From Candidatus Promineifilaceae bacterium (GTDB lineage: Bacteria > Chloroflexota > Anaerolineae > Promineifilales > Promineifilaceae): a stretch of DNA of 64,000 nt. Location of the stretch: contig CBDCWU010000009.1 in the NCBI GenBank assembly GCA_965223555.1, forward strand, positions 375,619-439,618. The letters are read 5' to 3'. The notes below the pieces were generated by a model, which searched no databases, was not told where the DNA came from, and saw nothing but the letters and a program-made list of their open reading frames with translations. Below are positions 38,637 to 55,345 of this stretch, one piece after another. Numbering within the stretch: position 1 is the first letter of the stretch; every line of letters starts with the position of its first letter. Position numbers and translations under genes: made by a program.

Positions 38637-40799
38637 TTACAGGTCGTTGATTAGTTTTTGGAATTCGGCTTCGTCGGCCAGGAATTCTAGGAGGGTGCGA
38701 TGGATGAACATCCAGCCGCCACCCACGCGGCGCAGCAATAGACGCGCCGCCATCCCATCCAAATAGGCAACCAACTTCCGATCCCGAAAAGGAAAGGGTA
38801 GCATCCCCTGCCGCGCCAACAACCAGCGCAACACATAATGCTTTATCACCGTTTCTCCCCCATATTGCATTGGCCCGATCATAAGCCCGATCATAAGCCC
38901 GACCACCAGCCCCAGCCCCAGCCCGAAAATCAGTTCACCAATGAGCGCAAAGATTAGTCCACCTCCCAATCCGAAAATTAGAGCAACAATTAGCCCATAC
39001 ACAGGACCTGTCCGCCGTGCATTATGCCATGATGTCCGAACACCTTGATTAGGTTGGGAACGTTGAAGCGTTCTATTTGTATGAATAAGAGATTCAAGTG
39101 CAGCTATTAGCCCGAAAATTAGCACACCGCCCAACCCGACAATCAGCCCAGCAATCAGCCCAGCAGTCAGCCCAGCAATCAGCCCGAAAATTAGCCCAGC
39201 ACCCAACCCAAAAATTAGCCCAGCGATCAATCCTTGTTTGATTTTTGACCGCAAAAGGGGAGAGTGAGGGCGTAGCCAACGGATTTCTTCAACTAACTGT
39301 ATAGGACCACTATCAGATACAAAAAACTGTTTAAGACTCTCGTCACGAATGCCTATACCACCTTTGAAACCGAGAAACAATCCTATTAACAGCCAAACAA
39401 CTAACCCTGCAATTAGCCCAAGAATTAGACCAACAACCAAGCTGGTAATCAGACTAAAAATTAATCCAATAACCAGACTAACAATCAGCCCAGCAATCAG
39501 CCCAGCAATCAGCCCGAAAAGCCAACGGTAGGAACGGGGATTGGGTGGCCAGCTTGGTTGTAGCTGCTCAATGTAAAAAACAGATTGGTTATGGGCTTGC
39601 AATTGGTGGGCAAGGTGGTACAACCAGGTTAAGGCGGCATGTTCATTATACGGGCCATCAGGGGGTAAGGGGCGGCGGTGCAAGTTGTGCTTGATGTAAG
39701 CGGTAAACAGTTGGTTCCGCTTGTCAGCCAAGCTCCCGCCTGCGGGCAAGGGCGTTTCACTAAAGGTGAAGGCCATGAGGTTAAGCATGAGGGGGGATTG
39801 GGCCAGTTCGCGCCACTCGTCGTCGGTGGCCACGGCTTGGCGCAGGCCGGCCAGGGGGGCGCTGAAGCTGGCTAGGTAGTCGTCTATCTGGCTGGGGGTC
39901 AGGGGCTGGAGGCGGATGGCGCTGCTGAGGTTGAGCTGTGCTTGCAGTTGCTCGTAATCGGCCAGGCGGCTGCACACCACCATGTCGGCGGGGTGGTCGG
40001 CTTTGAAGCTGTTGATGGCTGTCACACAAGCTTCGCGCTGTTCGGCAGCCACTTCATCCAGCCCATCCAGCAGCAGTGTTAACTGGTTGCCTGTCAGCCA
40101 GTCGCGGCTCAACTGGCGCGGGGCTTGGTACTGCACCAGCAATTCCTCCACTATCCAAGCAACCAAGTCCCCGCCTTCTCGCGCCCACGAGGAGAGATTA
40201 AGGACAATGGGAATGGGCTCATTGGGGTCGGCTTGGGCGGCGGTCAGCAACTCTTGCAAGAGTTGCAGCAGGGCAATGGTTTTGCCACTGGCTGGTTCGC
40301 CCAAAATCAGCAAGGCTCGTCCCCGCGCCGCGAATATTTGGGCCAAACTGGTGTCGGCTGGAATAGGCTGCTCCTCAGGGTAAAGGCTACGGTGGGGGCG
40401 GCTAAGGGCATCATGCTGGTAGCTCATGTCCAAGGCCAGGGCCACATCGTTGTGCAGGGCTGGCTCTAATATGCCCTCAATCCAGGTGTGGTGGATGTTG
40501 TTGAGGATGTTTTGGCGGTTGCGTTGTTGGGGGTGGCTGGGGGTGGCGGTGGTCAGGGCGGCAGCGAGTTCGGCGGCATTGGGCCACGTGAGTTTGTCAC
40601 GTTCCTCACGTAAAGCGGCAATTAGTTCATCTAATTGCTCGCGCCGCTGCACGTGAGTTAGCAGGGAACGAATTTTGCTGGATTTGCGAAAGCCATCCAA
40701 CTCGTCCCAATCCACACCTAAATCCATAGCCAAACCGCGTAGCTCTTCTTGGTCGAAGCTGCGGGCGATTTGTTGGTGGAGCTGTTTGGCTAGGTTCAT
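38637..40799 (-). CDS. NLR-like NACHT/STAND NTPase: N-terminal effector-associated (death-like) adaptor domain, NACHT core, and about 290-aa glycine-zipper TM repeat insertion before the C-terminal winged-helix motif
   Basis: Walker A LILGEPASGKT. Walker B LTLLLDGLDEV. Winged-helix motif RRVGGGWMFIHRTLLEFLA at the extreme C-terminus. Three blocks of (GLIxGLIx)n. The N-terminal ~60 aa are homologous to the N-terminus of the CHAT protein. Confidence 0.8.
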   Translation of the reverse strand: MNLAKQLHQQIARSFDQEELRGLAMDLGVDWDELDGFRKSSKIRSLLTHVQRREQLDELIAALREERDKLTWPNAAELAAALTTATPSHPQQRNRQNILNNIHHTWIEGILEPALHNDVALALDMSYQHDALSRPHRSLYPEEQPIPADTSLAQIFAARGRALLILGEPASGKTIALLQLLQELLTAAQADPNEPIPIVLNLSSWAREGGDLVAWIVEELLVQYQAPRQLSRDWLTGNQLTLLLDGLDEVAAEQREACVTAINSFKADHPADMVVCSRLADYEQLQAQLNLSSAIRLQPLTPSQIDDYLASFSAPLAGLRQAVATDDEWRELAQSPLMLNLMAFTFSETPLPAGGSLADKRNQLFTAYIKHNLHRRPLPPDGPYNEHAALTWLYHLAHQLQAHNQSVFYIEQLQPSWPPNPRSYRWLFGLIAGLIAGLIVSLVIGLIFSLITSLVVGLILGLIAGLVVWLLIGLFLGFKGGIGIRDESLKQFFVSDSGPIQLVEEIRWLRPHSPLLRSKIKQGLIAGLIFGLGAGLIFGLIAGLTAGLIAGLIVGLGGVLIFGLIAALESLIHTNRTLQRSQPNQGVRTSWHNARRTGPVYGLIVALIFGLGGGLIFALIGELIFGLGLGLVVGLMIGLMIGPMQYGGETVIKHYVLRWLLARQGMLPFPFRDRKLVAYLDGMAARLLLRRVGGGWMFIHRTLLEFLADEAEFQKLINDL
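38850..39530 (-). repeat. Three arrays of 12-nt tandem codon repeats (GCTGGGCTGATT-like, encoding A-G-L-I) inside the NACHT gene
   Basis: Direct tandem DNA repeats, e.g. aatcagcccagc x4 and gatcataagccc x2. In-frame, hence copy-number variable without frameshift. Confidence 0.7.
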
Positions 40800-40974
40800 G
40801 GTTGGTTTAGATAATAGTCAGCTTGCAGGAGATTGTACAGAGGAAGAAAAGGGATTACAACATCTGCACTCAAACAATTTGTTGCTTGACAACTCTCCTG
40901 GCAGGATCGTATCATCTGCTCACGATATTGTTCTCCGGTTAGATAAATATTTACTATCCATTCGCAAACAAAAC

Positions 40975-42261
40975 ATGACATCCGCGAATGGGCTTCAAGT
41001 AGCCGCTCGGTTGGGAACGTGTGCAGTTCATTATGAAATGAACGGCTACTTGGCAATCAGTGAGCAGTCCATGACAGCAAGCATCCCATTTCAACTTGAT
41101 AAACCGGGGAGTGGAGCCACGATTGTCTATCGCCCTTGGGGAATTTCTACGCTGAAAGTGCAAATAAGCACCCAAACAGATCTACCTCCTTTACGTCTAC
41201 GGCCGCAAAATGTGCACCCTGAAGAGGCAGCCAATGGGCTCTTTCGGGCCTTTGCTGATGATAGTGACGCCTTCATTATCAGCTGGGGTGGTGGCAATGA
41301 GCCGGGGCCATGCAGCCAAGCCGAAGATTTTCTGATGGCCTTTGAAAAGTGCGTGGACTTAAATCCGGGCGAAGGCAGCACTGTCTTTTTTAATGTGCAG
41401 CATGTGGGGCCAGATGTGCCGGAAACAAGCCTCATTACGTTGCAAGCCTATGATGAAGAGAGCGGGGATGTCGTAGCCGTGCTGCCTATTCAGATGGAAC
41501 AAACGGCGGCTTATCGGGCGGATGCGGTGCAATTTGTTGAGGCGGAGCCAGGGATTTGGCGACCATCAGGCAGCAGCTTGCCCACGTATGATCCGCGCTG
41601 GTGGCCGCGCTCAGTGGACTATGTGCCAGCCGATGAGTTGCCGCTAACAATTCAGTGGGGGAATAATGAGCTATTTGTGTTATGGCAGGATCATGTAGCT
41701 GCAACGGTAAGGGATCATACGCAGCCGACGATTTTGGATTTAGGCGACATTTCGTATGAACTATTTTACTTTGATGAGTGGCATGTGGCTTTACGAATCT
41801 GGTTTTTTTGGCTGGACAAGAATGTTGGCACGGATTTTTTTGTAGGGCGACATGAGGTGCCCGATGCCGAACGCTTTGATATGTTGATCCGACGCCAAGA
41901 CGGCGCCACGACGCTGGCTTGCACGGATTTGCATTGGCGGGAGACGTGGGGGCGGGTGAAAAAAGGCGAGCCGCTAGAGGCAACGCTGGGGCTGAGTACG
42001 GATACAAAGATTAAGCTGGCCAAGGAGGCTTTGGGCAAGGTGTGGCAGGTGTGGCAGCGGGATGAGAAGGTGGATCATAAACGGCCGTATGACCCTCTCA
42101 CCTATATCCAACGCATGGCCGCCACTCTGGGGGCAGAAGCTGTAGGCACGGTTCGGGCCAAAGGCACCGAAGCCCATTTGCCCGCTTTGCAAAATGTGGA
42201 AACAACTGACCAACCAGGCCGGCCGCCACGCATGACAAGTAGTGATGTGAGATTAGGATAG
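40975..42261 (+). CDS. Hypothetical protein (428 aa) divergent from NACHT gene and immediately upstream of CHAT gene
   Basis: No recognisable motif. The track ORF begins at 40675 but that would overlap the NACHT start; the first ATG after the NACHT gene is 40975. Confidence 0.5.
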   Translation: MTSANGLQVAARLGTCAVHYEMNGYLAISEQSMTASIPFQLDKPGSGATIVYRPWGISTLKVQISTQTDLPPLRLRPQNVHPEEAANGLFRAFADDSDAFIISWGGGNEPGPCSQAEDFLMAFEKCVDLNPGEGSTVFFNVQHVGPDVPETSLITLQAYDEESGDVVAVLPIQMEQTAAYRADAVQFVEAEPGIWRPSGSSLPTYDPRWWPRSVDYVPADELPLTIQWGNNELFVLWQDHVAATVRDHTQPTILDLGDISYELFYFDEWHVALRIWFFWLDKNVGTDFFVGRHEVPDAERFDMLIRRQDGATTLACTDLHWRETWGRVKKGEPLEATLGLSTDTKIKLAKEALGKVWQVWQRDEKVDHKRPYDPLTYIQRMAATLGAEAVGTVRAKGTEAHLPALQNVETTDQPGRPPRMTSSDVRLG

Positions 42262-42358
42262 CATATCAGTAAATGGGGGATTGAGTGATAATTGGGTAAT
42301 TATCGAATTAGTCGCTCCAAGTCGAATATCATCAGTACAAACCGCAGGAGATAATTAA

Positions 42359-44086
42359 ATGAACAGAAGGGATCTCGTTAAGTTAATAGCCCGTGATTTT
42401 GCGGATCAAGAGGAGTTTACCGATCTGCTCTTTGAGCTTGATTTAGAATACGGCAACATAAAAGGCAGCACGATTTCGGCCAAGTCACGTGAATTAGTGA
42501 CTTACAAGGAACGCCGTGGTGAAGTGGAAGAGTTATTAACAGCAATCGTCGCGATGCGACCAAATTTACAGGAACAGTTGGAAGCATATGATGGTGTGCG
42601 GCCTGGCATGGATATTGGCAAGAACAAAGGTCAAGGCTCATCCAGGCGGGGAGGGCAATCTCATCCAGGAATGGGTGATGATACGACTGATGAGCAGCAA
42701 GGTTTAGCATACGAGAATTTTGATATACGGATTCTGACGGCGGATTCAGATGGCAGTTATCGCATTCAAGTAAATCGTAATCCCGAAAATATGGAGATGT
42801 ACGATGATGTACGGCAGAAGTTTCCCCTGGATGATTATGATTTTGTTGATTTGGTAGATTACTTGTCTGATTTGATTGCCCAAGGGAATGATGCCAAACA
42901 GTTGGGGAAAATGATGCGCGACTTGCTCTTTCCGGGGCGTATTGGCGAGATATTTTTTGCCAATATGGGCAGTATGCGGCGGCAGGGGAAGGGGTTGCGC
43001 ATTCGTTTGCGCATTGATGCGCCGGAATTGAGCAAACTACCTTGGGAATATTGTTATGGCGGGGATGAGTTTGGCTTTTTTGCTCTGGACCCGCGTACGC
43101 CGCTGGTGCGCTATATTGCACGGCCGTTTGAGACTTCAACACTAGCTGTACCCAACCCCATGAAAGTGCTGCTGGCGATTGCGGCACCCTCAGACCAAGC
43201 ACCTTTGAGTGTGGATGAGGAAGAGCGGCGGGTGCGCAGTTGGCTCAGCGTGATGGGGGATCGGGTACAGTTGCGAGTAGTGCGCAATGCCACCCCGCAG
43301 CGTCTACAGGCAGCCTTGACGGATTCACCCCACATTTTCCACTTTATTGGGCATGGTGAATTTGTAGATGGGATGGGCAAATTGGTGCTGGAGGATAATT
43401 TTGGTAAATCTGAATATCGTGATTCGGAGCAGTTGAAGGTGATGCTGCGTGGGCGTGATGTGAAGGTAGTGATTCTGAATGCTTGTAAGTCGGCGGCGGG
43501 CAATGCCCACGCCGCTTTTGCGGGGGTGGCTCCAGCCTTGGTGCAGGCAGATGTGCCGGCGGTGATTGCCATGCAGTTTAATGTGCCGGACAAGACAGCC
43601 TTGGGCTTTACGCAGGATTTGTATCGCTATTTGATGGCGGGTTATCCTCTGGATCAGGCGGTGACGGAGATGCGGGCGGGGGCGTTTAATAATGCCAATG
43701 ATAAGTATTTCTGGGGTATCCCGGCCTTGTATATGCGCTCACCAGACGGCCGTTTGTGGGAGCCTGAGGCTGAATTATTGGCTAAGTTTGAGGAGGCGCG
43801 GGAAACGGCCGTTGACCAAGCTGGTGCCACGATTCCTGAGTTATTGCAGCAAATTAAAGATGAGGTGCAGAGCGCGGGTGATGTTGATGATCGAGATCGA
43901 GAGTACATTCTGCGCGGTTTAGATGATGGTTTGAGAGCGGCCAATGAAGGAGACGGCCGAGATGTGGCCTATTATCTTAACCGTGTTATTGATGATCTGA
44001 AGCGTTCTCGTTCGGATACGGCCGAGAAAGAGATTGTGCCGAAGGTGGAATTTGTGATACAGCGGGCAGAGAACGAGATGGGTTAA
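42359..44086 (+). CDS. CHAT-domain caspase-like peptidase with N-terminal effector-associated adaptor domain
   Basis: Catalytic His (IFHFIGHGEF) and Cys (VVILNACKSAAG) of the caspase-haemoglobinase fold, preceded by the LPWEYCYG helical region. N-terminal 65 aa align with the NACHT N-terminus (IAR.F.DQEE...L..L...G...K.R.L.T...RR...EL). Confidence 0.85.
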   Translation: MNRRDLVKLIARDFADQEEFTDLLFELDLEYGNIKGSTISAKSRELVTYKERRGEVEELLTAIVAMRPNLQEQLEAYDGVRPGMDIGKNKGQGSSRRGGQSHPGMGDDTTDEQQGLAYENFDIRILTADSDGSYRIQVNRNPENMEMYDDVRQKFPLDDYDFVDLVDYLSDLIAQGNDAKQLGKMMRDLLFPGRIGEIFFANMGSMRRQGKGLRIRLRIDAPELSKLPWEYCYGGDEFGFFALDPRTPLVRYIARPFETSTLAVPNPMKVLLAIAAPSDQAPLSVDEEERRVRSWLSVMGDRVQLRVVRNATPQRLQAALTDSPHIFHFIGHGEFVDGMGKLVLEDNFGKSEYRDSEQLKVMLRGRDVKVVILNACKSAAGNAHAAFAGVAPALVQADVPAVIAMQFNVPDKTALGFTQDLYRYLMAGYPLDQAVTEMRAGAFNNANDKYFWGIPALYMRSPDGRLWEPEAELLAKFEEARETAVDQAGATIPELLQQIKDEVQSAGDVDDRDREYILRGLDDGLRAANEGDGRDVAYYLNRVIDDLKRSRSDTAEKEIVPKVEFVIQRAENEMG

Positions 44087-44238
44087 CAGTAAACGGTAAC
44101 CCATAAGGCGGCAAAGCCGCAAAATTTTTCCACAAAGGGTACAAAGGACACAAAATTTATCTATACTTGGTGTTATTCGTGACCTTCGTGGAGGACAATT
44201 TACGCTTATGGTGCACATTTCGCGCTTGTACGAAGTAA

Positions 44239-44275
44239 CCGGATTACGGTTTACCGATTACTGATTACGGAACAT
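44239..44275. repeat. Copy of ccggattacggtt.accgatta repeat element between CHAT and nuclease genes
   Basis: cggattacggtttaccgattactgattacgg compared with 18395-18425. Confidence 0.4.
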
Positions 44276-45074
44276 GCCAGATACGCTCACCCTTAGTCGC
44301 ACGAAGTTTTCTGCTTTTTTGGCTTGCCAGCGGCGCTTTGAATTGCGCTATTTGCGGCAATTGTCCTGGCCAGATGTGCCTTTGTCGGAGCAGTCGGCCT
44401 TGGTGCAGAAACGGGGGCAACAGTTTCATCAGTTGTTGGAAAGACATTTCCTAGGGCTGTCAATAGAGTTGAATGGCATTAGCGACAGTGTGGTGCGCCG
44501 ATGGTGGCTGGCATTTCAGGGCAGTAATCCAGTCTCCAGTCTCCAATCTCCAGCCTCTAGCTGGCAACGATTACCAGAACTGTCGCTCACTATTCCGGTG
44601 GGAGGTTATTTGCTGAACGGCCGTTTCGACCTCCTCGTTATAGCTGACCAACAAGCCCACATCTTTGACTGGAAAACGGGCAAACCCCAACCGGAGCGGC
44701 GTTTGCGCCATGATTGGCAAACACGCCTTTATTTGGCAATGGTAGCCGAGAGCAGCACGGCATTGGGGGCAGATTTTGCGCCGGAGCAGATTACCCTCAC
44801 CTACTGGTATGTGTCCGAACCAGATGCGCCGCGCACAATCCAGTATGATGCGGCCTGGCATAGGCAAAATTGGGCCGAGATTGAGCAGTTGGTGACACAA
44901 ATTGAGGTCGCCACAGCTGAGGGGATGTGGCCGTTAACGGATGATTGGGAGCAATGCCGTCCGTGTGCCTATCGGGCCCATTGTGGGCGACAAGAGGTTG
45001 AAACGGCCGAATCCGCTCCCGATGAAGATGCAGAAGAAGTTGTGAGTTTGCAATTGGAACCAAATATCCCATAA
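44274..45074 (+). CDS. PD-(D/E)XK nuclease with Cas4/AddB-like Fe-S cysteine cluster
   Basis: Motifs GRFDLLV ... IFDWKTGK (D ... D/ExK). One N-terminal Cys plus C-terminal C-X2-C-X5-C (CRPCAYRAHC). Confidence 0.6.
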   Translation: MPDTLTLSRTKFSAFLACQRRFELRYLRQLSWPDVPLSEQSALVQKRGQQFHQLLERHFLGLSIELNGISDSVVRRWWLAFQGSNPVSSLQSPASSWQRLPELSLTIPVGGYLLNGRFDLLVIADQQAHIFDWKTGKPQPERRLRHDWQTRLYLAMVAESSTALGADFAPEQITLTYWYVSEPDAPRTIQYDAAWHRQNWAEIEQLVTQIEVATAEGMWPLTDDWEQCRPCAYRAHCGRQEVETAESAPDEDAEEVVSLQLEPNIP

Positions 45075-45103: not shown

Positions 45104-45142
45104 GACACGGATAGGGAAGAGGCCTTATCCGTGTTTGTTTTT
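45104..45142 (+). terminator. Rho-independent terminator closing the CHAT-nuclease unit
   Basis: acacggata-loop-tatccgtgt followed by TTGTTTTTT. Confidence 0.7.
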
Positions 45143-45147
45143 TATCT

Positions 45148-46320
45148 ATGACTTTAGATGAGTTTTATTTTTTGTTGACGGCTGAAGGGCAGCAGCTTTT
45201 GGGCCAGGTTCCCTTAATTACGCCGGAAACGCATTTGGCAACGGCGGTCCAGTTACGACGCCAGGTGGGCCAGGGGTTGGCGCAGGCAGTACTGGAAACA
45301 GCCTTATTGCGGCAGGAAGCGGCCGTTAAGTTTAGCCGAGCGTCTGATATGTACTTCAGTCGGGAAGCTTTGGAACAATCCTCATCGGAGGTGGTAGCTA
45401 GGTATCGGGCAGAGCGTTTTTTTCGGGCTGGGATTGAGCGCGTGGCAGATTTGGGCTGCGGCATTGGCGGTGACTCGTTGGCATTGGCGGCAGGGATGGA
45501 AGTGATGGGGGTGGAGTGGCAGCCAGTACGGTTGGCCATGGCCCAAGAGAATGTGCGGGTGTATGGTCATGGGGCTAATTTTCGGCCGTTGCAGGCAGAT
45601 TTACTGGAATTAACGCCGCTGCCTGTGCAGGCCGCTTTTTTTGATCCAGCGCGGCGGGATGAAAACGGCCGTCGTCTCACTTCTGTTCATCAATATCGGC
45701 CCCCACTTAGTTTGATTGACAAGTGGCGGGTGTGGATTGGGGAAACGGCCGTGAAAATCAGCCCCGGCGTGGCCTATGACGAATTGCCAGAAGATGCTGA
45801 GATAGAGTTCATTTCTGTAAATGGTGATGTAAAAGAAGGCGTATTGTGGTTTGGCGATTTGCGCTCCGGTGTTAGGCGACGGGCGACATTATTGCCCTCA
45901 GGTGAGACGTTGACAGACAGGGAGATGCCGATGACACCCATTGCTGTGACTAAACCACAGGCCTACCTGTATGAGCCAGACAAGGCGGTAATTCGGGCAC
46001 ATCTGGTGCAAGCATTGGCACAGCAGTTGGGGGCAACTAAACTGGATGAGGAGATCGCCTATTTAACGGCCGATTCAGTCCAACCAACTCCTTTTGCTCG
46101 CTGTTTTGTCATTGAGGATTGGTTTCCCTTCCAACTTAAACGGCTGCGGCACTATTTACGGGAGCGTGATATAGGACGTGTGGTCATCAAAAAGCGCGGT
46201 TCGCCCTTGCAGCCAGAAACATTGCAACGCCAATTACGCTTACAAGGCGATAATGAATGTATTATCTTTTTGACACATGTGGGGGGAGAAGCGGCCGTTT
46301 TAATTGGGCAACGCCCTTAG
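45148..46320 (+). CDS. Class I SAM-dependent methyltransferase (putative RNA methyltransferase with N-terminal extension)
   Basis: Motif I VADLGCGIGGDSLALA. 390 aa. Confidence 0.5.
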   Translation: MTLDEFYFLLTAEGQQLLGQVPLITPETHLATAVQLRRQVGQGLAQAVLETALLRQEAAVKFSRASDMYFSREALEQSSSEVVARYRAERFFRAGIERVADLGCGIGGDSLALAAGMEVMGVEWQPVRLAMAQENVRVYGHGANFRPLQADLLELTPLPVQAAFFDPARRDENGRRLTSVHQYRPPLSLIDKWRVWIGETAVKISPGVAYDELPEDAEIEFISVNGDVKEGVLWFGDLRSGVRRRATLLPSGETLTDREMPMTPIAVTKPQAYLYEPDKAVIRAHLVQALAQQLGATKLDEEIAYLTADSVQPTPFARCFVIEDWFPFQLKRLRHYLRERDIGRVVIKKRGSPLQPETLQRQLRLQGDNECIIFLTHVGGEAAVLIGQRP

Positions 46321-46700
46321 CTAACTGAATTGTTCGTATACTGCTTGATAACTTCGCGCAATTTGCGAATATCTAATGGCTTGGGTAGATAATCATCACA
46401 ACCAGCTTCAAGGCAGCGTTCCCGGTCACCAACCAACACTTGGGCTGTCGTAGCAATAAGCGGTACCGGGGCCAATCGTTCATCAGCCTTAAAGCAACGG
46501 GCTAACTCTAAACCATCAATTCCTGGCAGGTTAATATCTAGCAAAATAATGTCAGGTACTATATGCTCTAAAATATCAAGGGCCGTAGGACCATCTTCTG
46601 CTTTGATTACTTCATGTCCCGCTGCTTCCACAACACGACTAACTAAAATCATATTGGCCGGATTATCTTCAATGCATAGTACAATCATCTGTTTGAGCAT
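46317..46700 (-). CDS. Single-domain response regulator
   Basis: Receiver fold (ILLDINLPGIDG). 127 aa. Confidence 0.75.
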   Translation of the reverse strand: MLKQMIVLCIEDNPANMILVSRVVEAAGHEVIKAEDGPTALDILEHIVPDIILLDINLPGIDGLELARCFKADERLAPVPLIATTAQVLVGDRERCLEAGCDDYLPKPLDIRKLREVIKQYTNNSVS

Positions 46701-48535: not shown

Positions 48536-48919
48536 TTAATCCACAAAAGTAAGGCTCAAATCCTGCAAATTAATAACCGCACCAGCTTGGCGCAAAAAAT
48601 CCATTCCCAGAATGCCATTAATTTCAAATCCATAATCCATCCCACCCACCTCAATTTCCAAATTTGGCACTTGCTGTTTACCGATTTGGACGTAATCTAC
48701 ACGCCTTGTGAAAACAACTTCTGTGCCACCTACACCGCGAATGGTGTGTAATGTGTCATTGGGTTCAGGGGTGATGTGAACGGCCGTTAACCGATCCGCC
48801 GCCAAAATTGTCGTCGCCGAACCCGTATCAATCAACACATTATCAACCGTGGCTGTTATACCACGGTAAGCAATCGTAATCTGGCTAAAAGGTAAATTAT
48901 CAACCAACCTGAGCTTCAT
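48536..48919 (-). CDS. Retropepsin-like (clan AA) aspartic peptidase domain protein
   Basis: DTGS active-site motif (LIDTGSATTILA). 127 aa. Confidence 0.55.
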   Translation of the reverse strand: MKLRLVDNLPFSQITIAYRGITATVDNVLIDTGSATTILAADRLTAVHITPEPNDTLHTIRGVGGTEVVFTRRVDYVQIGKQQVPNLEIEVGGMDYGFEINGILGMDFLRQAGAVINLQDLSLTFVD

Positions 48920-49178
48920 GGCTTCTGCGAACTCCTAACCAGTAGCGCACCTCAATATCCAGTTCTTCCCGACTTGTATGCACAAAATAAAACTCCCGAT
49001 CAGGATACTGCTGGTGCCAACGACGATAGCTCTGCATAGCACTGCCACCATCATCACATTGCTCAATCACCGCCAATCGCACTACTTCTCGATGGTTATC
49101 AGGCCGTGTATATGCTTCCAATGCTTCCACCACCAACCACTGTTCAGGATAAACCTGTCGTATTTCAGTCCAAATCAT
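48900..49178 (-). CDS. Hypothetical small protein co-transcribed with the aspartic peptidase gene
   Basis: ORF with probable start at MIWTEIRQ..., overlapping the peptidase gene by 20 nt. Confidence 0.35.
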   Translation of the reverse strand: MIWTEIRQVYPEQWLVVEALEAYTRPDNHREVVRLAVIEQCDDGGSAMQSYRRWHQQYPDREFYFVHTSREELDIEVRYWLGVRRSHEAQVG

Positions 49179-49184
49179 AGTCAG

Positions 49185-49290
49185 CCTCCACACTATCCAC
49201 CACCATACAGCCACAAAACATCTTCGAGTCCGTCATCAACTCCGTACACATCTCTAATCCAATCACTGCTTCATGATTCGTCATCCACAT
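49185..49290 (-). pseudogene. Diverged duplicate of the gatB 5' end (first ~35 codons, ~90% nt identity to 48432-48532)
   Basis: Encodes [34 protein letters not shown], compared with [34 protein letters not shown] for genuine GatB. Homology ends at gcctccacac on both copies. Confidence 0.8.
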
Positions 49291-50597
49291 CTTTCCAAAA
49301 TAAGAATATGTTCTTCTACATTCATCTTCGTTACTGTAGACAAGCGCGTACGCCACAACAAGGTTTCCACTTCTCGATAGTTCAATTTTTGGCAAGCAAT
49401 TAAGCTGAGAAGTTTAGCTGTATAAATTGGCACACGAAAATAACTCATCTGATCGCCAACAACAAAAGCCAATTGAGCCCCGACAGACGTAACTTGTTGC
49501 AATTGTTCCAAAACTCGAAACATGCCACCAAAATATTCTGTGACTACTCGATGATACAGGCGTTCAAAGCCAGATGTCGCTCCCCGTTCAATTCGTTTCC
49601 GTTCAATCTCCTGAGACAGTTTCTGAATTTCTGGCATATCGGCTACGTATTGGGCATCATCATCAGCAACATACACATTACGTGTATGAGAACGCAACAT
49701 CTCCTTTTTGATGGTACGTAAATCCCCTTTACTTTGCATAAAATCTAGCAAAAGCAATTCTAATCGTGTGATGCGCGAATAATCTTTCTCATTAGGGTAT
49801 GGGGGTGAGCAGATGATGAAATCTATGTTCGTATCCATAAACGCTGTCAACTTTCGTGCATCCCCTAAATAAACAATTGATTCGCCAAGCTGTTCAATCT
49901 GCTGCACTTTCACCAAATCAATCCGCATTCGGCGCAATTTATCTACAAATAAATTATAAACATCTGCATCTTTGCGCTTTTTAGACACATACACTTCTGG
50001 CCCAAACCCTAAATTAGAAGCCGCTACAAATACGTTGGCTAAAGCCAGTTGAAACAACTCTGTTAAACTATCCTCCGGTTCGTCAATTAGCAATTGTTTG
50101 ATGATTAAACATTTCTGCAAAGGGTTAGGGCTAATCCAGTTCTTGGGTAATAAGCCCCGGATAATTTCCCCATCCACTTCCATTTCTGTCTCAGCAAGCA
50201 AGCCGCCAGGTGGCAATAAATCATCGAAGGAAAGTTGTGTTGCATATTGTTTGCCCACTGCATGAATTGGTTGCCAGATTCTCTGGCATAGAGATTGAAA
50301 TCGATTATCAAATTCTGTTAAATCAATGTCCCAATTTGTTTTCACCCGACTAGCAAAAGCGGTGACTGGATTCGCATCAATGCCGATAGAATTGATCCCT
50401 CGTCGCTTACATTCCACCAAAGTTGTTCCTGTTCCCACAAATGGGTCTAGCACTACATGATTGTGCCCAATCCCAAATTTTTCGATGAGACCAGATACGA
50501 GATGATCGGGATAAGACAAAACGAAACGATACCAATCATGAATAGTTGTATCGTCTAATTGTTGCGCCGTGTGATTCGGCCGTTGTAAATCACTCAT
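49281..50597 (-). CDS. DNA methyltransferase, N6-adenine/N4-cytosine type (SPPY motif IV, alpha-class order)
   Basis: Motif I DPFVGTGTT near the N-terminus. Motif IV FIICSPPYPNE about 200 aa downstream. Confidence 0.75.
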   Translation of the reverse strand: MSDLQRPNHTAQQLDDTTIHDWYRFVLSYPDHLVSGLIEKFGIGHNHVVLDPFVGTGTTLVECKRRGINSIGIDANPVTAFASRVKTNWDIDLTEFDNRFQSLCQRIWQPIHAVGKQYATQLSFDDLLPPGGLLAETEMEVDGEIIRGLLPKNWISPNPLQKCLIIKQLLIDEPEDSLTELFQLALANVFVAASNLGFGPEVYVSKKRKDADVYNLFVDKLRRMRIDLVKVQQIEQLGESIVYLGDARKLTAFMDTNIDFIICSPPYPNEKDYSRITRLELLLLDFMQSKGDLRTIKKEMLRSHTRNVYVADDDAQYVADMPEIQKLSQEIERKRIERGATSGFERLYHRVVTEYFGGMFRVLEQLQQVTSVGAQLAFVVGDQMSYFRVPIYTAKLLSLIACQKLNYREVETLLWRTRLSTVTKMNVEEHILILERCG

Positions 50598-53497: not shown

Positions 53498-55345
53498 TCA
53501 CGGCGCATCTGAAGCGCAGCGGAAACCGAGATTGGCGCGGGCCACAAGTGGGTCGAAAGAGGTGCGTGCTGTCGTAGCCACATCTTCCACATCGGACAGC
53601 CAAGAGCCACCACGTATTGTTTTGAACTGACCCTCTACGGGGCCAAGCGGATTGGTGTCGCTGATGTCCTGATAGGCACGGAAGTCGTACCAATCGTTGA
53701 CCCATTCCATCACATTGCCGCTCATGTCATAGAGGCCAATGGGGGAACGGCCGTCGCCATAGCTACCTACCGGCGCTGTATCCCGATGCCCATCATCAAA
53801 GGCGGGATCACGCTGATCGGCAGGGCAATTACTATCACAAAAATTGAGCTTGGCCCCGTCAAAAGCTTCGCCCCAAGGATAACGTAACTTCAAGGCTTGC
53901 ACAGGATCAAAACCAGCCGCTTTCTCCCACTCTGCTTCTGATGGCAGGCGAGCCTCGCGCCACTCACAAAATGTTTGAGCATCATACCAACTAACAAAAA
54001 TTACGGGATAATCGATAAAAGCTGGTGAGCCATAATAAGCATTATGGTAGGTGGCATTGGGCCGACGGGGCGGCTGGCACACACCGGCATCTACACATTG
54101 GGCATATTGGCCGTTGGTCACTTCGGTTTCATCAATGTAAAAGGGGTTGAGCCGCACCAATTGTGAGGGCTTTTCATCGTTTTCACCCTCATCATGGCCG
54201 ATGCGAAAGACGCCAGCCGGCATAAAGATCATACGTGCCCCCGTTTCGGTGATGATAGGTTCGGGGGTGGGTGTCGGTGGCTCAGTGGGAGCGGGCAGAG
54301 GTGTGGGTGTGGGGGCAATAGCTGTTAGGGCAGCGATGACGACGGATTCGACAGTGGCAGTGGTCCCAATTTCGGCTGCCTCTGGCTCGTCTTGGCTGGC
54401 AAGGCTGAAGAGGCCAATCAGTGTGAGGAGGATTATGAGAACGACCGCTAAACCCCAAATGGTGCGCTGTTCAATCTGTTTACGCCGGGTAGGTGTGAGA
54501 ACAGGTGGCGGGGCGGTGGCTGAGGGAACGGCCGTGCGTCGCAGTTCATCTGGGGGCAAAGGCACTGGATGGCCGGCAGGGCGATTGAGAGCTTGAGCAA
54601 AATCAGCCGCCGTCTCATAACGAGCGTCAGCCCGCATAGACATAGCTCGGGCCGCTACCAGCGACAGATAAGGTTCCACATCAGGGTTTACCTCTCGCGC
54701 CGGAATAAGATCAACTAGGCCGCTTTCGCGGCTGAGGGCTTGGGGCGGCACTTGGGCCGTCAACAGCGTGTAGAGCGTAGCCCCCAGACTGTAGATGTCA
54801 CTATAAGCTGACACCTCTGTCTGTGCTTGCTGTTCCGGTGCGCCATAGCCATCTGTGTGGGGGCGCACCCCCATGCCTGATAACCCGGTGTCTACGAGGA
54901 AGATTTGGGAATCGGCCGTTAGTCGTAAATTAGCAGGTTTAATATTGAGATGCAGCACACCTTGCTGGTGCAAATAGCCCAGCGGTTCACAAGCCGCTTG
55001 CAGCCAGCCAATAAGCAAATCTGAGGGTAACGCGCCATACTGATTCAGCAGACTTTGTAAATCCACACCATCCACATAATCACTGACCAAATATTGGCCG
55101 ACGCCATCCAGCGGAAAGTGGTCGCGGAAGGTTGCTAGCTGAGGATGGCTCAGTTGGGTGAGGCGGCGGGCTTCGCTACGGAAGCGTTTTTGAATCTCTG
55201 GCGAGGCATCTAGATACTCTTTGATGGCATAATGCCGCTCATCTTTGATGTCGTAGGCGCGGTAGGTGGCCCCATATGAGCCAGAGGCCATCAAGTTGAC
55301 AATACGATAGCGGTGATTGAGAAGTTCACCAGGAAGAAGAGGCAT
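53498..55345 (-). CDS. Ser/Thr protein kinase fused to C-terminal FGE-sulfatase (SUMF1/formylglycine-generating enzyme-like) domain via a Pro/Thr-rich TM linker
   Basis: Kinase subdomains (AIKEY, HLNIKPANL, DTG-like) in the N-terminal half. FGE motifs (NGQYAQC ... RGGSW ... W-rich) in the C-terminal half. Confidence 0.75.
   Translation of the reverse strand: MPLLPGELLNHRYRIVNLMASGSYGATYRAYDIKDERHYAIKEYLDASPEIQKRFRSEARRLTQLSHPQLATFRDHFPLDGVGQYLVSDYVDGVDLQSLLNQYGALPSDLLIGWLQAACEPLGYLHQQGVLHLNIKPANLRLTADSQIFLVDTGLSGMGVRPHTDGYGAPEQQAQTEVSAYSDIYSLGATLYTLLTAQVPPQALSRESGLVDLIPAREVNPDVEPYLSLVAARAMSMRADARYETAADFAQALNRPAGHPVPLPPDELRRTAVPSATAPPPVLTPTRRKQIEQRTIWGLAVVLIILLTLIGLFSLASQDEPEAAEIGTTATVESVVIAALTAIAPTPTPLPAPTEPPTPTPEPIITETGARMIFMPAGVFRIGHDEGENDEKPSQLVRLNPFYIDETEVTNGQYAQCVDAGVCQPPRRPNATYHNAYYGSPAFIDYPVIFVSWYDAQTFCEWREARLPSEAEWEKAAGFDPVQALKLRYPWGEAFDGAKLNFCDSNCPADQRDPAFDDGHRDTAPVGSYGDGRSPIGLYDMSGNVMEWVNDWYDFRAYQDISDTNPLGPVEGQFKTIRGGSWLSDVEDVATTARTSFDPLVARANLGFRCASDAP

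What the first reader, a model, noticed from the sequence alone, without database searches (positions are those of the whole stretch)
44274..45074. Cas4/AddB-like PD-(D/E)XK plus Fe-S nuclease immediately downstream of the CHAT protease, inside the same terminator-bounded unit
Carries the RecB-fold motifs (FDLL ... DWKTGK) plus the terminal cysteine quartet typical of Cas4-type Fe-S nucleases. There is no CRISPR array or cas gene anywhere in the window. Its position, with the terminator only after it at 45104-45142, suggests it is a nucleic-acid-degrading effector arm of the NACHT/CHAT system; protease-activated nucleases are plausible by analogy with other abortive-infection systems. Alternatively it is an unrelated repair gene.
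Basis: partly seen in the sequence, partly recalled or inferred. Interest (0 to 1): 0.55.

Follow-up and report, generated by a model that had tools for sequence, protein, structure and literature searches.

The report
Stand-alone Cas4-like nuclease beside CHAT protease
The gene is a real iron-sulfur Cas4/AddB-type DNA nuclease, but it is a vertically inherited gene of this Chloroflexota lineage whose more distant relatives sit in DNA-repair operons, so it looks like a repair-type nuclease lying next to a variable slot for cell-death genes, not a dedicated weapon of the NACHT/CHAT system.

Summary
The ORF 44274-45074 (+, 266 aa) is real. It matches Pfam PDDEXK_1 (3.8e-28) and carries the RFD / DWK / QxxxY motifs and exactly four cysteines (C18 + C228/C231/C237). 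Its predicted fold matches the Cas4 family protein ACE1, AdnA, AddB and Cas4. A strong, conserved terminator follows it, and no CRISPR array is present.

All 80 related species-level Chloroflexota genomes keep the gene. A THUMP-like methyltransferase follows it in 73. The position just upstream varies: EAD7-CHAT or other CHAT proteins in 39, EAD7-TIR in 8, an ABC-transporter gene or a small membrane protein in 17, other genes in 16. The catalytic motifs and acidic C-terminal tail persist in every class, and the protein has no EAD adaptor domain.

The sister subfamily lies between a UvrD helicase (45/63) and RecJ (44/61), never next to CHAT.

Best reading: a solo AddB/Cas4-type DNA-end nuclease of the core genome that flanks a slot where CHAT/TIR modules are inherited and replaced. 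The "effector arm" idea is not supported but not excluded, because the CHAT adjacency is old and tight. Interest is modest.

The parts
44274..45074 (+). Nuclease gene (266 aa): stand-alone Cas4/AddB-type PD-(D/E)XK nuclease
   Evidence: ORF. Pfam PDDEXK_1 3.8e-28. Foldseek matches to ACE1, AdnA, SSO0001 Cas4, AddB and MGME1 at probability 1.0. dN/dS 0.13-0.16 against close relatives.
44325..44327 (+). Codon of Cys18, the N-terminal ligand of the predicted 4Fe-4S cluster
   Evidence: Invariant in alignment A1.
44619..44636 (+). Motif G-R-F-D119-L-L (catalytic Asp)
   Evidence: Read from the sequence. Invariant. Kept in 79 of 80 orthologues.
44667..44675 (+). Motif D132-W-K134 (the D/ExK catalytic pair)
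   Evidence: Read from the sequence. Invariant. Kept in 80 of 80 orthologues.
44718..44732 (+). Q149-x3-Y153 motif of RecB/Cas4-type nucleases
   Evidence: Invariant. Kept in 79 of 80 orthologues.
44955..44984 (+). C228-x2-C231-x5-C237, the C-terminal three cluster ligands
   Evidence: Invariant. Kept in 75 of 80 orthologues; five lack the CxxCx5C pattern.
44985..45071 (+). Acidic C-terminal tail ending in L-E-P-N-I-P; predicted partner-docking peptide
   Evidence: The tail tip L(E/T/V)PxxP is conserved whether or not CHAT/TIR is upstream. The sister subfamily has an acidic tail ending ...DFDQIAEIEF. The model has low pLDDT here, so the tail is probably disordered. The docking role is inferred.
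44528..44557 (+). Heptamer tandem repeat (TCCAGTC x 4.3) inside the coding region, seen as an in-frame insertion
   Evidence: Tandem Repeats Finder. The insertion is present only in the window sequence and P0013 in the alignment.
44087..44273 (+). 188-nt spacer between CHAT and the nuclease, holding a weak hairpin (44108-44120) and heptamer repeats (44242-44268)
   Evidence: The spacer is 54, 16 or 0 nt in the closest relatives. No sigma-70-like site was scored in it.
45104..45145 (+). Intrinsic terminator-like hairpin (13-bp stem) plus T-run, between the nuclease and the methyltransferase
   Evidence: -21.1 kcal/mol, z = -3.9. The hairpin sequence is conserved in L089, L090 and L091.
45148..46320 (+). 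THUMP-like class I SAM methyltransferase (PG_1098 / 3LL7 family); the conserved downstream neighbour
   Evidence: Pfam Thump_like 1.6e-19 and Methyltransf_15. PDB 3ll7 at 5.6e-16. Directly downstream of the nuclease in 73 of 80 genomes. Pairwise distances correlate with the nuclease, r = 0.84.
42359..44086 (+). EAD7-CHAT protease; occupant of the variable slot upstream (context, not part of the nuclease)
   Evidence: Pfam EAD7 and CHAT. The His (FIGHG) and Cys (LNACKS) of the catalytic dyad are visible in the translation. Orthologues or other CHAT proteins lie upstream in 39 of 80 genomes.
41071..42261 (+). orf396: conserved all-beta partner gene directly upstream of EAD7-CHAT (context)
   Evidence: The start was reset from homologue lengths. 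Upstream of CHAT in 12 of the 80 loci and in L089 and L090. Paired with a CHAT-NACHT fusion and no nuclease in L172. Model pLDDT 82, tandem Ig-like domains.
38637..40799 (-). EAD7-NACHT protein, divergently transcribed (context)
   Evidence: Pfam EAD7 and NACHT. Conserved next to the block only in L089.

Best explanation
The gene encodes a stand-alone ('solo') Cas4/AddB-family nuclease. It has a PD-(D/E)XK active site (D119, D132, K134, Q149/Y153), and a predicted 4Fe-4S cluster (C18, C228, C231, C237) staples its N- and C-termini together. A disordered acidic C-terminal tail ends in a conserved L-E-P-x-x-P tip.

Shown here:
- The family, motifs and fold.
- Purifying selection on the gene.
- Presence in all 80 species-level relatives that the scan retained (Ardenticatenaceae / Promineifilaceae-type Anaerolineae), in one conserved chromosomal frame: amino-acid ABC transporter, variable slot, nuclease, THUMP-like methyltransferase, response regulator.
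- A sister subfamily embedded between nuclease-less UvrD-type helicases and RecJ.

Inferred:
- It is a metal-dependent single-strand / DNA-end nuclease. It does the job that the AddB/AdnA nuclease domain does in end resection and recombinational repair, and possibly also degrades foreign linear DNA.
- It is supplied as a separate polypeptide and is recruited to a helicase, RecJ or SSB-type partner through its acidic tail.

In this genome it is probably co-transcribed with the upstream EAD7-CHAT gene. That is because the CHAT module occupies the variable slot directly upstream. It does not show that the nuclease is the module's effector.
For: Identity:
- PDDEXK_1 at 99.5 bits, with invariant catalytic and Cys residues.
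- Foldseek top hits are ACE1, AdnA, SSO0001 Cas4, AddB, MGME1 and Exo5.
- dN/dS is 0.13-0.16.

Core-gene behaviour:
- All 80 retained relatives have the methyltransferase directly downstream in 73 and the convergent response regulator in 58.
- Nuclease and methyltransferase pairwise distances correlate, r = 0.84. Nuclease and CHAT correlate at only 0.39 overall.

Independence from CHAT:
- 17 genomes have the nuclease directly after an ABC-transporter gene or a small membrane protein, with gaps as small as about 10-12 nt (L044, L077). 16 have other neighbours. All classes keep the motifs and the tail.
- CHAT genes of groups C and D are non-orthologous (distance about 0.8) although the nucleases are close (0.30-0.47). 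This indicates replacement in place.
- No EAD domain is present on the nuclease. EAD systems recruit effectors through paired EADs (PMC7159879).
- orf396 plus a CHAT-NACHT fusion occurs without a nuclease.

Repair link:
- In 80 metagenome loci of the sister subfamily, a UvrD helicase is directly upstream in 45 of 63 evaluable loci and RecJ directly downstream in 44 of 61. The methyltransferase and CHAT are each present in 0 of 80.
- Those helicases are 715 and 749 aa and contain helicase domains only.
- L075, a member of the window's own subfamily, still has a UvrD helicase two genes upstream.

Literature: solo Cas4 is monophyletic and vertically inherited in many Chloroflexi, and pfam12705-UvrD operons have been read as repair (PMC5704561).
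Against: - A CHAT or TIR death-type effector gene lies immediately upstream, co-oriented and often overlapping, in 47 of 80 genomes.
- Within the 28 EAD7-CHAT orthologue genomes, CHAT and nuclease distances correlate, r = 0.80. The adjacency is therefore old and stably inherited, which is often taken as a sign of functional coupling.
- In this subclade the conserved terminator separates the nuclease from the methyltransferase, not from CHAT.
- No UvrD or RecJ gene lies in the 64-kb window. The repair link rests on homologues that are only about 30% identical.
- Solo Cas4-family nucleases can be accessory immune factors (ACE1 with pAgo, PMC12094033).
- No biochemical data exist for this family.
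Confidence: 0.6

Rival explanations
1. The nuclease is functionally tied to the upstream CHAT/TIR conflict modules. It could be a protease-activated DNase (a bacterial analogue of a caspase-activated DNase), an accessory nuclease that boosts the module, or the host protein that the NACHT-type sensor 'guards' against phage inhibitors of end-resection nucleases.
For: - CHAT (39) or EAD7-TIR (8) lies directly upstream on the same strand in 47 of 80 genomes, with gaps of 0-20 nt or overlaps in many.
- When one CHAT system is replaced by another, the effector gene again ends up next to the nuclease (L012, L014, L023, L027).
- EAD7-CHAT is co-inherited with the nuclease in 28 genomes, r = 0.80.
- The terminator lies after the nuclease, not before it.
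- ACE1 is a precedent for a solo Cas4-family nuclease acting as an immune accessory (PMC12094033).
Against: - 33 of 80 genomes keep an intact nuclease without CHAT/TIR.
- Equally tight spacing to an unrelated ABC ATPase gene shows that tight spacing at this locus is not specific to CHAT.
- The nuclease has no EAD adaptor.
- No sequence feature of the nuclease co-varies with the content of the slot.
- The orf396-CHAT/NACHT pair exists without a nuclease.
- The sister subfamily never neighbours CHAT, 0 of 80.
- The NACHT gene is not conserved.
Confidence: 0.22
2. The nuclease and the downstream THUMP-like methyltransferase form the real functional pair, for example a nucleic-acid processing/modification or restriction-modification-like couple. 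The CHAT gene is irrelevant to it.
For: - The methyltransferase is directly downstream in 73 of 80 genomes, often with 0-4 nt spacing or an overlap.
- Distance correlation between the two is r = 0.84-0.98.
- The SAM-binding region of the methyltransferase gives a weak hit to PADLOC mad2.
Against: - The correlation is what vertical co-inheritance of any two core genes would give.
- The sister subfamily never has the methyltransferase, 0 of 80.
- In this subclade a conserved strong terminator separates the two genes.
- The methyltransferase belongs to the widespread PG_1098 / Tgs1-like family. Its 'FDPARR' motif lacks the aromatic residue of the (D/N/S)PP(Y/F/W) motif of amino-methyltransferases (read from the sequence; the motif rule is from my own knowledge).
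Confidence: 0.1
3. It is an orphan CRISPR-associated Cas4 left behind by a lost CRISPR-cas locus.
For: - Sub-threshold Cas4 matches: TIGR00372 at 29 bits, PF01930 at 18.8 bits, PADLOC Cas4 at 6.4e-11.
- Some sources label homologues 'Cas4'.
Against: - The scores are below both curated cutoffs (65 and 22.7).
- No array and no CRISPR RNA family is present in the window.
- The same non-CRISPR context is conserved in 80 genomes.
- At 266 aa with long inserts it is larger than typical Cas4, and its best fold matches are ACE1 and AdnA.
Confidence: 0.02

Closest known systems
Solo Cas4-like nucleases of Pfam PF12705 (Hudaiberdiev et al. 2017, PMC5704561)
   Same: A stand-alone PD-(D/E)XK plus 4-Cys nuclease outside CRISPR loci. 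It is vertically inherited, under ordinary purifying selection, and reported as monophyletic in many Chloroflexi. Some members sit in operons with UvrD and have been read as repair genes.
   Different: This clade pairs the gene with a THUMP-like methyltransferase and very often with an upstream CHAT/TIR gene. The conserved acidic C-terminal tail and the RecJ link of the sister subfamily did not come up in my term search of that paper; I did not read it in full.
Nuclease domains of AddB / AdnA-AdnB (AddAB, AdnAB helicase-nucleases; PDB 3u44, 7sjr, 6ppr)
   Same: The same fold (Foldseek probability 1.0). The same 1+3 cysteine iron-sulfur staple as AddB. The sister subfamily is encoded between two UvrD-type helicase genes, like a split AddAB/AdnAB.
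   Different: Here the nuclease is a separate 266-aa protein, not the C-terminal domain of a helicase. No helicase gene lies in the window. TM-scores are only about 0.4 because the termini are poorly modelled.
[quoted passage not shown]
   Same: The best structural match (E 1.6e-6), of similar size (266-269 aa). It is a stand-alone Cas4-family single-strand DNA nuclease that works with a partner protein.
   Different: Sequence identity is 14-18%. No Argonaute gene was seen among the neighbours examined, though none was specifically searched for. ACE1's partner and role (trimming guide DNAs) have no counterpart shown here.
CRISPR-associated Cas4 (TIGR00372 / PF01930; SSO0001, PDB 4ic1)
   Same: The catalytic motifs, the four cysteines and the fold.
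   Different: It scores below both curated cutoffs. No CRISPR array or cas context is present. It is longer, with extra helices and an acidic tail.
EAD-coupled effectors of STAND/NACHT conflict systems (Kaur et al. 2020/2021, PMC7159879, PMC8195603)
   Same: It lies directly downstream of an EAD7-CHAT effector gene and close to an EAD7-NACHT gene. Restriction-endonuclease-fold DNases are known effectors in such systems.
   Different: It carries no EAD and is not fused to a core component. The DNase effectors that my term search of that work turned up are NaeI-like, Mrr-like or a new clade, and Cas4/RecB did not appear. The gene persists where the system is absent.

Membership tests
PD-(D/E)XK nuclease superfamily, Pfam PDDEXK_1 (PF12705) | HMM score above the gathering cutoff over the whole domain | tested here: met
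   99.5 bits against a cutoff of 22; residues 6-237 match profile positions 1-246 of 247.
PD-(D/E)XK nuclease superfamily, Pfam PDDEXK_1 (PF12705) | Catalytic D ... (D/E)xK residues plus the QxxxY motif | tested here: met
   D119, D132-W-K134 and Q149..Y153 are invariant in A1 and kept in 79-80 of 80 orthologues.
Cas4/AddB-type iron-sulfur nucleases | Four cysteines arranged C-x(~200)-C-x2-C-x5-C | tested here: met
   C18, C228, C231 and C237 are the only cysteines in the protein and are invariant.
Cas4/AddB-type iron-sulfur nucleases | An actual 4Fe-4S cluster and nuclease activity | not testable with these tools
   Requires purified protein (UV-vis/EPR spectroscopy, nuclease assays).
Cas4/AddB-type iron-sulfur nucleases | RecB-like nuclease fold | tested here: met
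   AF2 model with a confident core (residues 40-215). Foldseek probability 1.0 to ACE1, AdnA, SSO0001, AddB and MGME1, but TM only about 0.4.
CRISPR-associated Cas4 (TIGR00372 / PF01930) | Score above the curated cutoff | tested here: not met
   TIGR00372 at 29 bits against 65. PF01930 at 18.8 bits against 22.7.
CRISPR-associated Cas4 (TIGR00372 / PF01930) | Encoded next to cas1/cas2 or a CRISPR array | tested here: not met
   No array-like repeats and no Rfam CRISPR family in 64 kb. The neighbours are CHAT and a methyltransferase in the window and in the 80 relatives. cas proteins were not scanned across the whole window.
AddAB/AdnAB helicase-nuclease | Nuclease domain fused to, or encoded beside, a UvrD-like SF1 helicase | tested here: not met
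   A stand-alone 266-aa protein. No UvrD or RecJ homologue lies in the window. The feature is met only for the sister subfamily (45/63 and 44/61) and partly for L075.
EAD-coupled effector of a STAND/NACHT conflict system (Kaur et al.) | The effector carries the cognate EAD or is fused to a core component | tested here: not met
   The only Pfam domain is PDDEXK_1 (6-237) and the remaining 29 residues are an acidic tail. The recruitment rule is from PMC7159879.
EAD-coupled effector of a STAND/NACHT conflict system (Kaur et al.) | Presence and absence of the gene track the system across genomes | tested here: not met
   The nuclease is present in 80 of 80 relatives, CHAT/TIR is next to it in 47, and the NACHT gene is next to it essentially only in L089. 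The orf396-CHAT/NACHT pair occurs without the nuclease.
EAD-coupled effector of a STAND/NACHT conflict system (Kaur et al.) | Co-transcription with the system | tested here: inconclusive
   There is no significant terminator between CHAT and the nuclease, and a conserved one after the nuclease. No transcript data are available.

The most novel reading that the evidence does not exclude
In filamentous Anaerolineae, the solo AddB/Cas4-type nuclease gene may be more than a passive flank. It may be the fixed partner of a long-lived slot in which EAD7-linked CHAT and TIR death effectors are inherited and swapped. In that reading the nuclease is either a caspase-type-protease-controlled DNase or the 'guarded' end-resection enzyme whose inhibition by phage triggers the NACHT/CHAT or TIR module.
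Probability: 0.2. Interest if true: 0.7.

Novelty: new member of a known kind. Interest (0 to 1): 0.35.

Why it matters
As it stands, the gene is an ordinary member of the little-studied solo Cas4-like (PF12705) nucleases, so the finding mainly corrects an over-reading of gene adjacency. Two things would be worth a specialist's time.

1. The family appears to be a detached AddB/AdnA-type nuclease subunit with a conserved acidic docking tail. In its sister clade it is encoded with two nuclease-less UvrD-type helicases and RecJ. This may be an undescribed split end-resection machine.

2. The position directly upstream of the nuclease is a stable niche for CHAT/TIR cell-death modules in multicellular Chloroflexota. 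This gives a natural series of genomes with and without the modules, in which to test whether such modules talk to the DNA-repair machinery.

Tried and rejected
- Sequence search of the PDB with the family profile found nothing at E <= 1. Only the fold search was informative.
- Looking up the window protein itself (P0001) in the contig index failed, because it is not on record.
- A scan of viral contigs for relatives found none.
- I suspected that the GATTACGG-like motif just upstream of the start was an operator. It turned out to be one of many short heptamer tandem repeats that differ in sequence between relatives, so I rejected it as a conserved regulatory site.
- I tested whether orf396 could be a gasdermin-like substrate or effector of CHAT. 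It has no Pfam or PADLOC hit. The confident model is made of tandem Ig-like beta-sandwiches with no informative PDB match. It remains unresolved.
- My first single-linkage clustering merged the CHAT and nuclease families through read-through ORFs, so I re-classified with BLAST against the window proteins.
- The 5-bp hairpin after CHAT (44108-44120) was rejected as a terminator (z = -0.8).
- The orphan CRISPR Cas4 reading was rejected (see the rival explanations).
Full report
**1. Observation**

The ORF 44274-45074 (+) starts with ATG and encodes 266 aa. It matches Pfam PDDEXK_1 end to end (99.5 bits, cutoff 22). It matches Cas4 models only below their cutoffs: PF01930 at 18.8 against 22.7, and TIGR00372 at 29 against 65.

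A Q149xxxY153 motif is also present. The protein has exactly four cysteines, arranged C18 ... C228-x2-C231-x5-C237, which is the Cas4/AddB layout. All of these residues are invariant in a 19-sequence alignment of homologues 53-83% identical to it.

An AlphaFold2 model has a confident core (residues 40-215) and poorly modelled termini, as expected when the cluster that ties them together is missing. Foldseek against the PDB gives, at probability 1.0, the Argonaute-associated Cas4 family protein ACE1, AdnA of AdnAB, the Cas4 protein SSO0001, AddB, MGME1 and Exo5. TM-scores are only about 0.4. A profile search of PDB sequences found nothing.

The hairpin at 45104-45135 plus T-run is strong (-21.1 kcal/mol, z = -3.9). 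A small hairpin after the CHAT gene is no better than shuffled sequence. The window has no CRISPR-like array and no Rfam match.

**2. Who has this gene and what surrounds it**

The closest proteins all come from Chloroflexota: Ardenticatenaceae, Promineifilaceae, 'Leptofilum' and unnamed Anaerolineae. I fetched 80 loci from species-representative genomes, with the nuclease 41-62% identical, and mapped the window's neighbours onto them.
- The THUMP-like methyltransferase (window 45148-46320) lies directly downstream in 73 of 80, often with 0-4 nt spacing or an overlap.
- The convergent response regulator (46317-46700) is present in 58 of 80.
- A CHAT homologue was hit upstream on the same strand in 39 of 80 by this tblastn; the ORF-based class count below also comes to 39.
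- The orf528 family is present in 12 of 80.
- The NACHT gene is essentially absent.

ORF-level maps show one conserved frame: an amino-acid ABC transporter (binding protein, permease, ATPase), then a variable slot, then the nuclease, the methyltransferase and the response regulator.

Pfam on representatives shows what the slot holds:
- EAD7-CHAT, with or without the orf528-family protein or an unrelated 300-aa protein;
- MoxR, a vWA protein, and a STAND-CHAT protein with four EAD7 copies;
- CHAT-NB-ARC-WD40;
- CHAT-NACHT-FGE-sulfatase;
- EAD7-NACHT-FGE, a methyltransferase-like protein, and EAD7-TIR.

By class, the gene next to the nuclease (within one gene in L017, L022 and L066) is a CHAT protein in 39 genomes and EAD7-TIR in 8. 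In 17 it is an ABC-transporter gene or a small membrane protein. In 16 it is something else, for example an M23 peptidase gene on the other strand.

**3. Does the nuclease depend on the CHAT/NACHT system?**

- The catalytic motifs, the cysteines and the acidic tail ending L(E/T/V)PxxP are kept in every class.
- Where the slot is empty, the nuclease follows the ABC ATPase gene by as little as about 10-12 nt (L044, L077). Tight spacing to the upstream gene is therefore a property of the locus and not a CHAT-specific signal.
- Pairwise protein distances of the nuclease and the methyltransferase correlate at r = 0.84. Nuclease and CHAT correlate at only 0.39 overall.
- Splitting the CHAT genes explains why. 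In the 28 genomes with orthologous EAD7-CHAT the correlation is 0.80, so that gene has been inherited together with the nuclease for a long time. The CHAT genes of the '300-aa protein + CHAT' group and the 'MoxR-vWA-STAND-CHAT' group are about 0.8 distant from them, although their nucleases differ by only 0.30-0.47. That indicates replacement in place.
- The nuclease has no EAD domain. In the EAD systems described by Kaur et al., effectors are recruited through a copy of the EAD carried by the effector itself (PMC7159879; PMC8195603).
- An orf528-family protein 45% identical to the window's sits next to a CHAT-NACHT fusion with no nuclease downstream (L172).
- In the three closest relatives the block orf396 - EAD7-CHAT - nuclease - methyltransferase - response regulator is kept, except that L091 lacks orf396. 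The divergent NACHT gene is seen only in L089.
- There the CHAT-nuclease gap is 54, 16 and 0 nt, and the terminator hairpin after the nuclease is conserved. Co-transcription with CHAT is therefore plausible in this subclade.
- dN/dS of the nuclease is 0.13-0.16. That is similar to CHAT and somewhat above the methyltransferase and GatB, so it reflects purifying selection and not an arms-race signal.

**4. What the wider family does**

A profile search of 1.84 billion representatives finds 410 clusters at E <= 1e-30. Most of the more distant members are 270-285 aa and have an acidic tail ending in a very conserved ...DFDQIAEIEF-COOH.

Their contexts are uniform: a UvrD-like helicase of about 700 aa, a UvrD helicase of about 745 aa, the nuclease, then RecJ. 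One protein fuses NERD and two kinase domains to the nuclease, in the same position between UvrD and RecJ.

In 80 metagenome loci of this sister subfamily:
- UvrD is directly upstream in 45 of 63 evaluable cases;
- RecJ is directly downstream in 44 of 61;
- the methyltransferase and CHAT are each present in 0 of 80.

The helicases contain helicase domains only. The arrangement therefore looks like an AddAB/AdnAB-type machine with its nuclease domain detached, plus RecJ.

L075, the most divergent member of the window's own subfamily, still has a UvrD helicase two genes upstream. No UvrD or RecJ gene lies in the window.

This agrees with Hudaiberdiev et al. 2017. They found solo Cas4 monophyletic and vertically inherited in many Chloroflexi, and read unfused UvrD/Cas4-like operons as repair (PMC5704561).

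**5. Mechanism I commit to (about 0.6)**

The gene encodes a metal-dependent, iron-sulfur-stabilised single-strand / DNA-end nuclease of the AddB/Cas4 type. It acts as a separate subunit in DNA-end processing and is recruited to a partner through its acidic C-terminal tail.

Shown: family, motifs, fold, conservation, synteny, selection.
Inferred: activity, the repair role, tail docking.

In this genome the nuclease is probably transcribed together with EAD7-CHAT, because that module occupies the slot directly upstream.

**6. Rivals**

(a) Functional coupling to the CHAT/TIR modules, as a protease-controlled DNase, an accessory nuclease or a guarded target (about 0.22). This is kept alive by the old, tight and repeatedly re-established adjacency, and by the ACE1 precedent (PMC12094033).

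(b) A nuclease-methyltransferase functional pair (about 0.1). The adjacency is strong, but it is absent in the sister subfamily and interrupted by a conserved terminator in this subclade. The methyltransferase belongs to the PG_1098/3LL7, Tgs1-like family.

(c) An orphan CRISPR Cas4 (about 0.02).

**7. Novelty and score**

The nuclease is a new member of a known kind, the solo Cas4-like PF12705 nucleases.

What is mildly new is the context: a stable slot for CHAT/TIR death-effector genes directly upstream of this nuclease in about 60% of the species, and a probable split helicase-nuclease-RecJ operon in the sister clade. Two full-text searches found no paper linking CHAT and Cas4-like nucleases.

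Interest: 0.35.

Noticed in passing
L001-L080, the region between the ABC-transporter ATPase gene and the nuclease; in the window 38637-44086: The position directly upstream of the nuclease is a variable slot that holds different STAND/EAD7/CHAT/TIR conflict modules in 47 of 80 species. The modules include EAD7-CHAT, MoxR-vWA-STAND-CHAT-4xEAD7, CHAT-NB-ARC-WD40, CHAT-NACHT-FGE, and EAD7-NACHT-FGE + methyltransferase + EAD7-TIR. Close relatives show clear replacement in place.
   Followed up: yes
L083-L088 and L092-L171 (sister subfamily; not in the window): A conserved operon: UvrD-like helicase (about 700 aa), UvrD helicase (about 745 aa), Cas4-like nuclease, RecJ. The nuclease has an almost invariant C-terminal ...DFDQIAEIEF tail, reminiscent of the acidic SSB C-terminal peptide. 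It looks like a split AddAB/AdnAB-type machine.
   Followed up: partly
L081 8001-11339 (protein P0236): A 1112-aa fusion of a NERD domain, two protein-kinase domains and the Cas4-like nuclease occupies the nuclease position between UvrD and RecJ.
   Followed up: partly
window 44242-44268 and 44528-44557; upstream of the nuclease in L011, L014, L025, L031, L035, L042, L048, L050, L055 and others: Short tandem heptamer repeats whose unit sequence differs between genomes sit just upstream of the nuclease start in many relatives. One array (TCCAGTC x 4.3) lies inside the window's nuclease gene as an in-frame insertion. They recall the heptamer STRR repeats of filamentous cyanobacteria (from my own knowledge).
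   Followed up: partly
window 41071-42261 (+): The ORF listed as 528 aa from 40675 is really a 396-aa gene, judged by homologue lengths. It defines a Chloroflexota-only family (160 proteins) with no Pfam match and a confident all-beta tandem Ig-like model. It is the constant partner directly upstream of EAD7-CHAT, and in L172 of a CHAT-NACHT fusion. Its function is unknown.
   Followed up: partly
window 38873-39515 (within the NACHT gene, minus strand): 12-nt periodic repeats encode long runs of GLIxGLIx hydrophobic four-residue repeats in the C-terminal half of the EAD7-NACHT protein. This suggests a membrane-embedded or glycine-zipper region in place of the usual repeat sensor domain.
   Followed up: no
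L058, L060, L069, L072, L080 (nuclease orthologues next to an M23 peptidase gene): In this subclade the last cysteine of the CxxCx5C triad is replaced (by T or D), so these orthologues may have lost the iron-sulfur cluster while keeping the catalytic motifs.
   Followed up: no
window 53498-55345 (-): A protein kinase fused to an FGE-sulfatase-like domain. The same FGE domain forms the C-terminal part of the NACHT proteins found in the slot of L014 and L027.
   Followed up: no
window 48536-50597 (-), against L089 7962-8733: Downstream of gatB the window carries a retropepsin-like aspartyl protease, a small ORF and an N6/N4 DNA methylase. The closest relative has a DUF5615/DUF433 pair at that position instead, so this is a second small variable spot.
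   Followed up: no
window 45104-45145; L089, L090, L091: In the window's subclade a conserved terminator hairpin separates the nuclease from the methyltransferase. In most other lineages the two genes abut or overlap, so the transcription-unit boundary has moved within the clade.
   Followed up: partly
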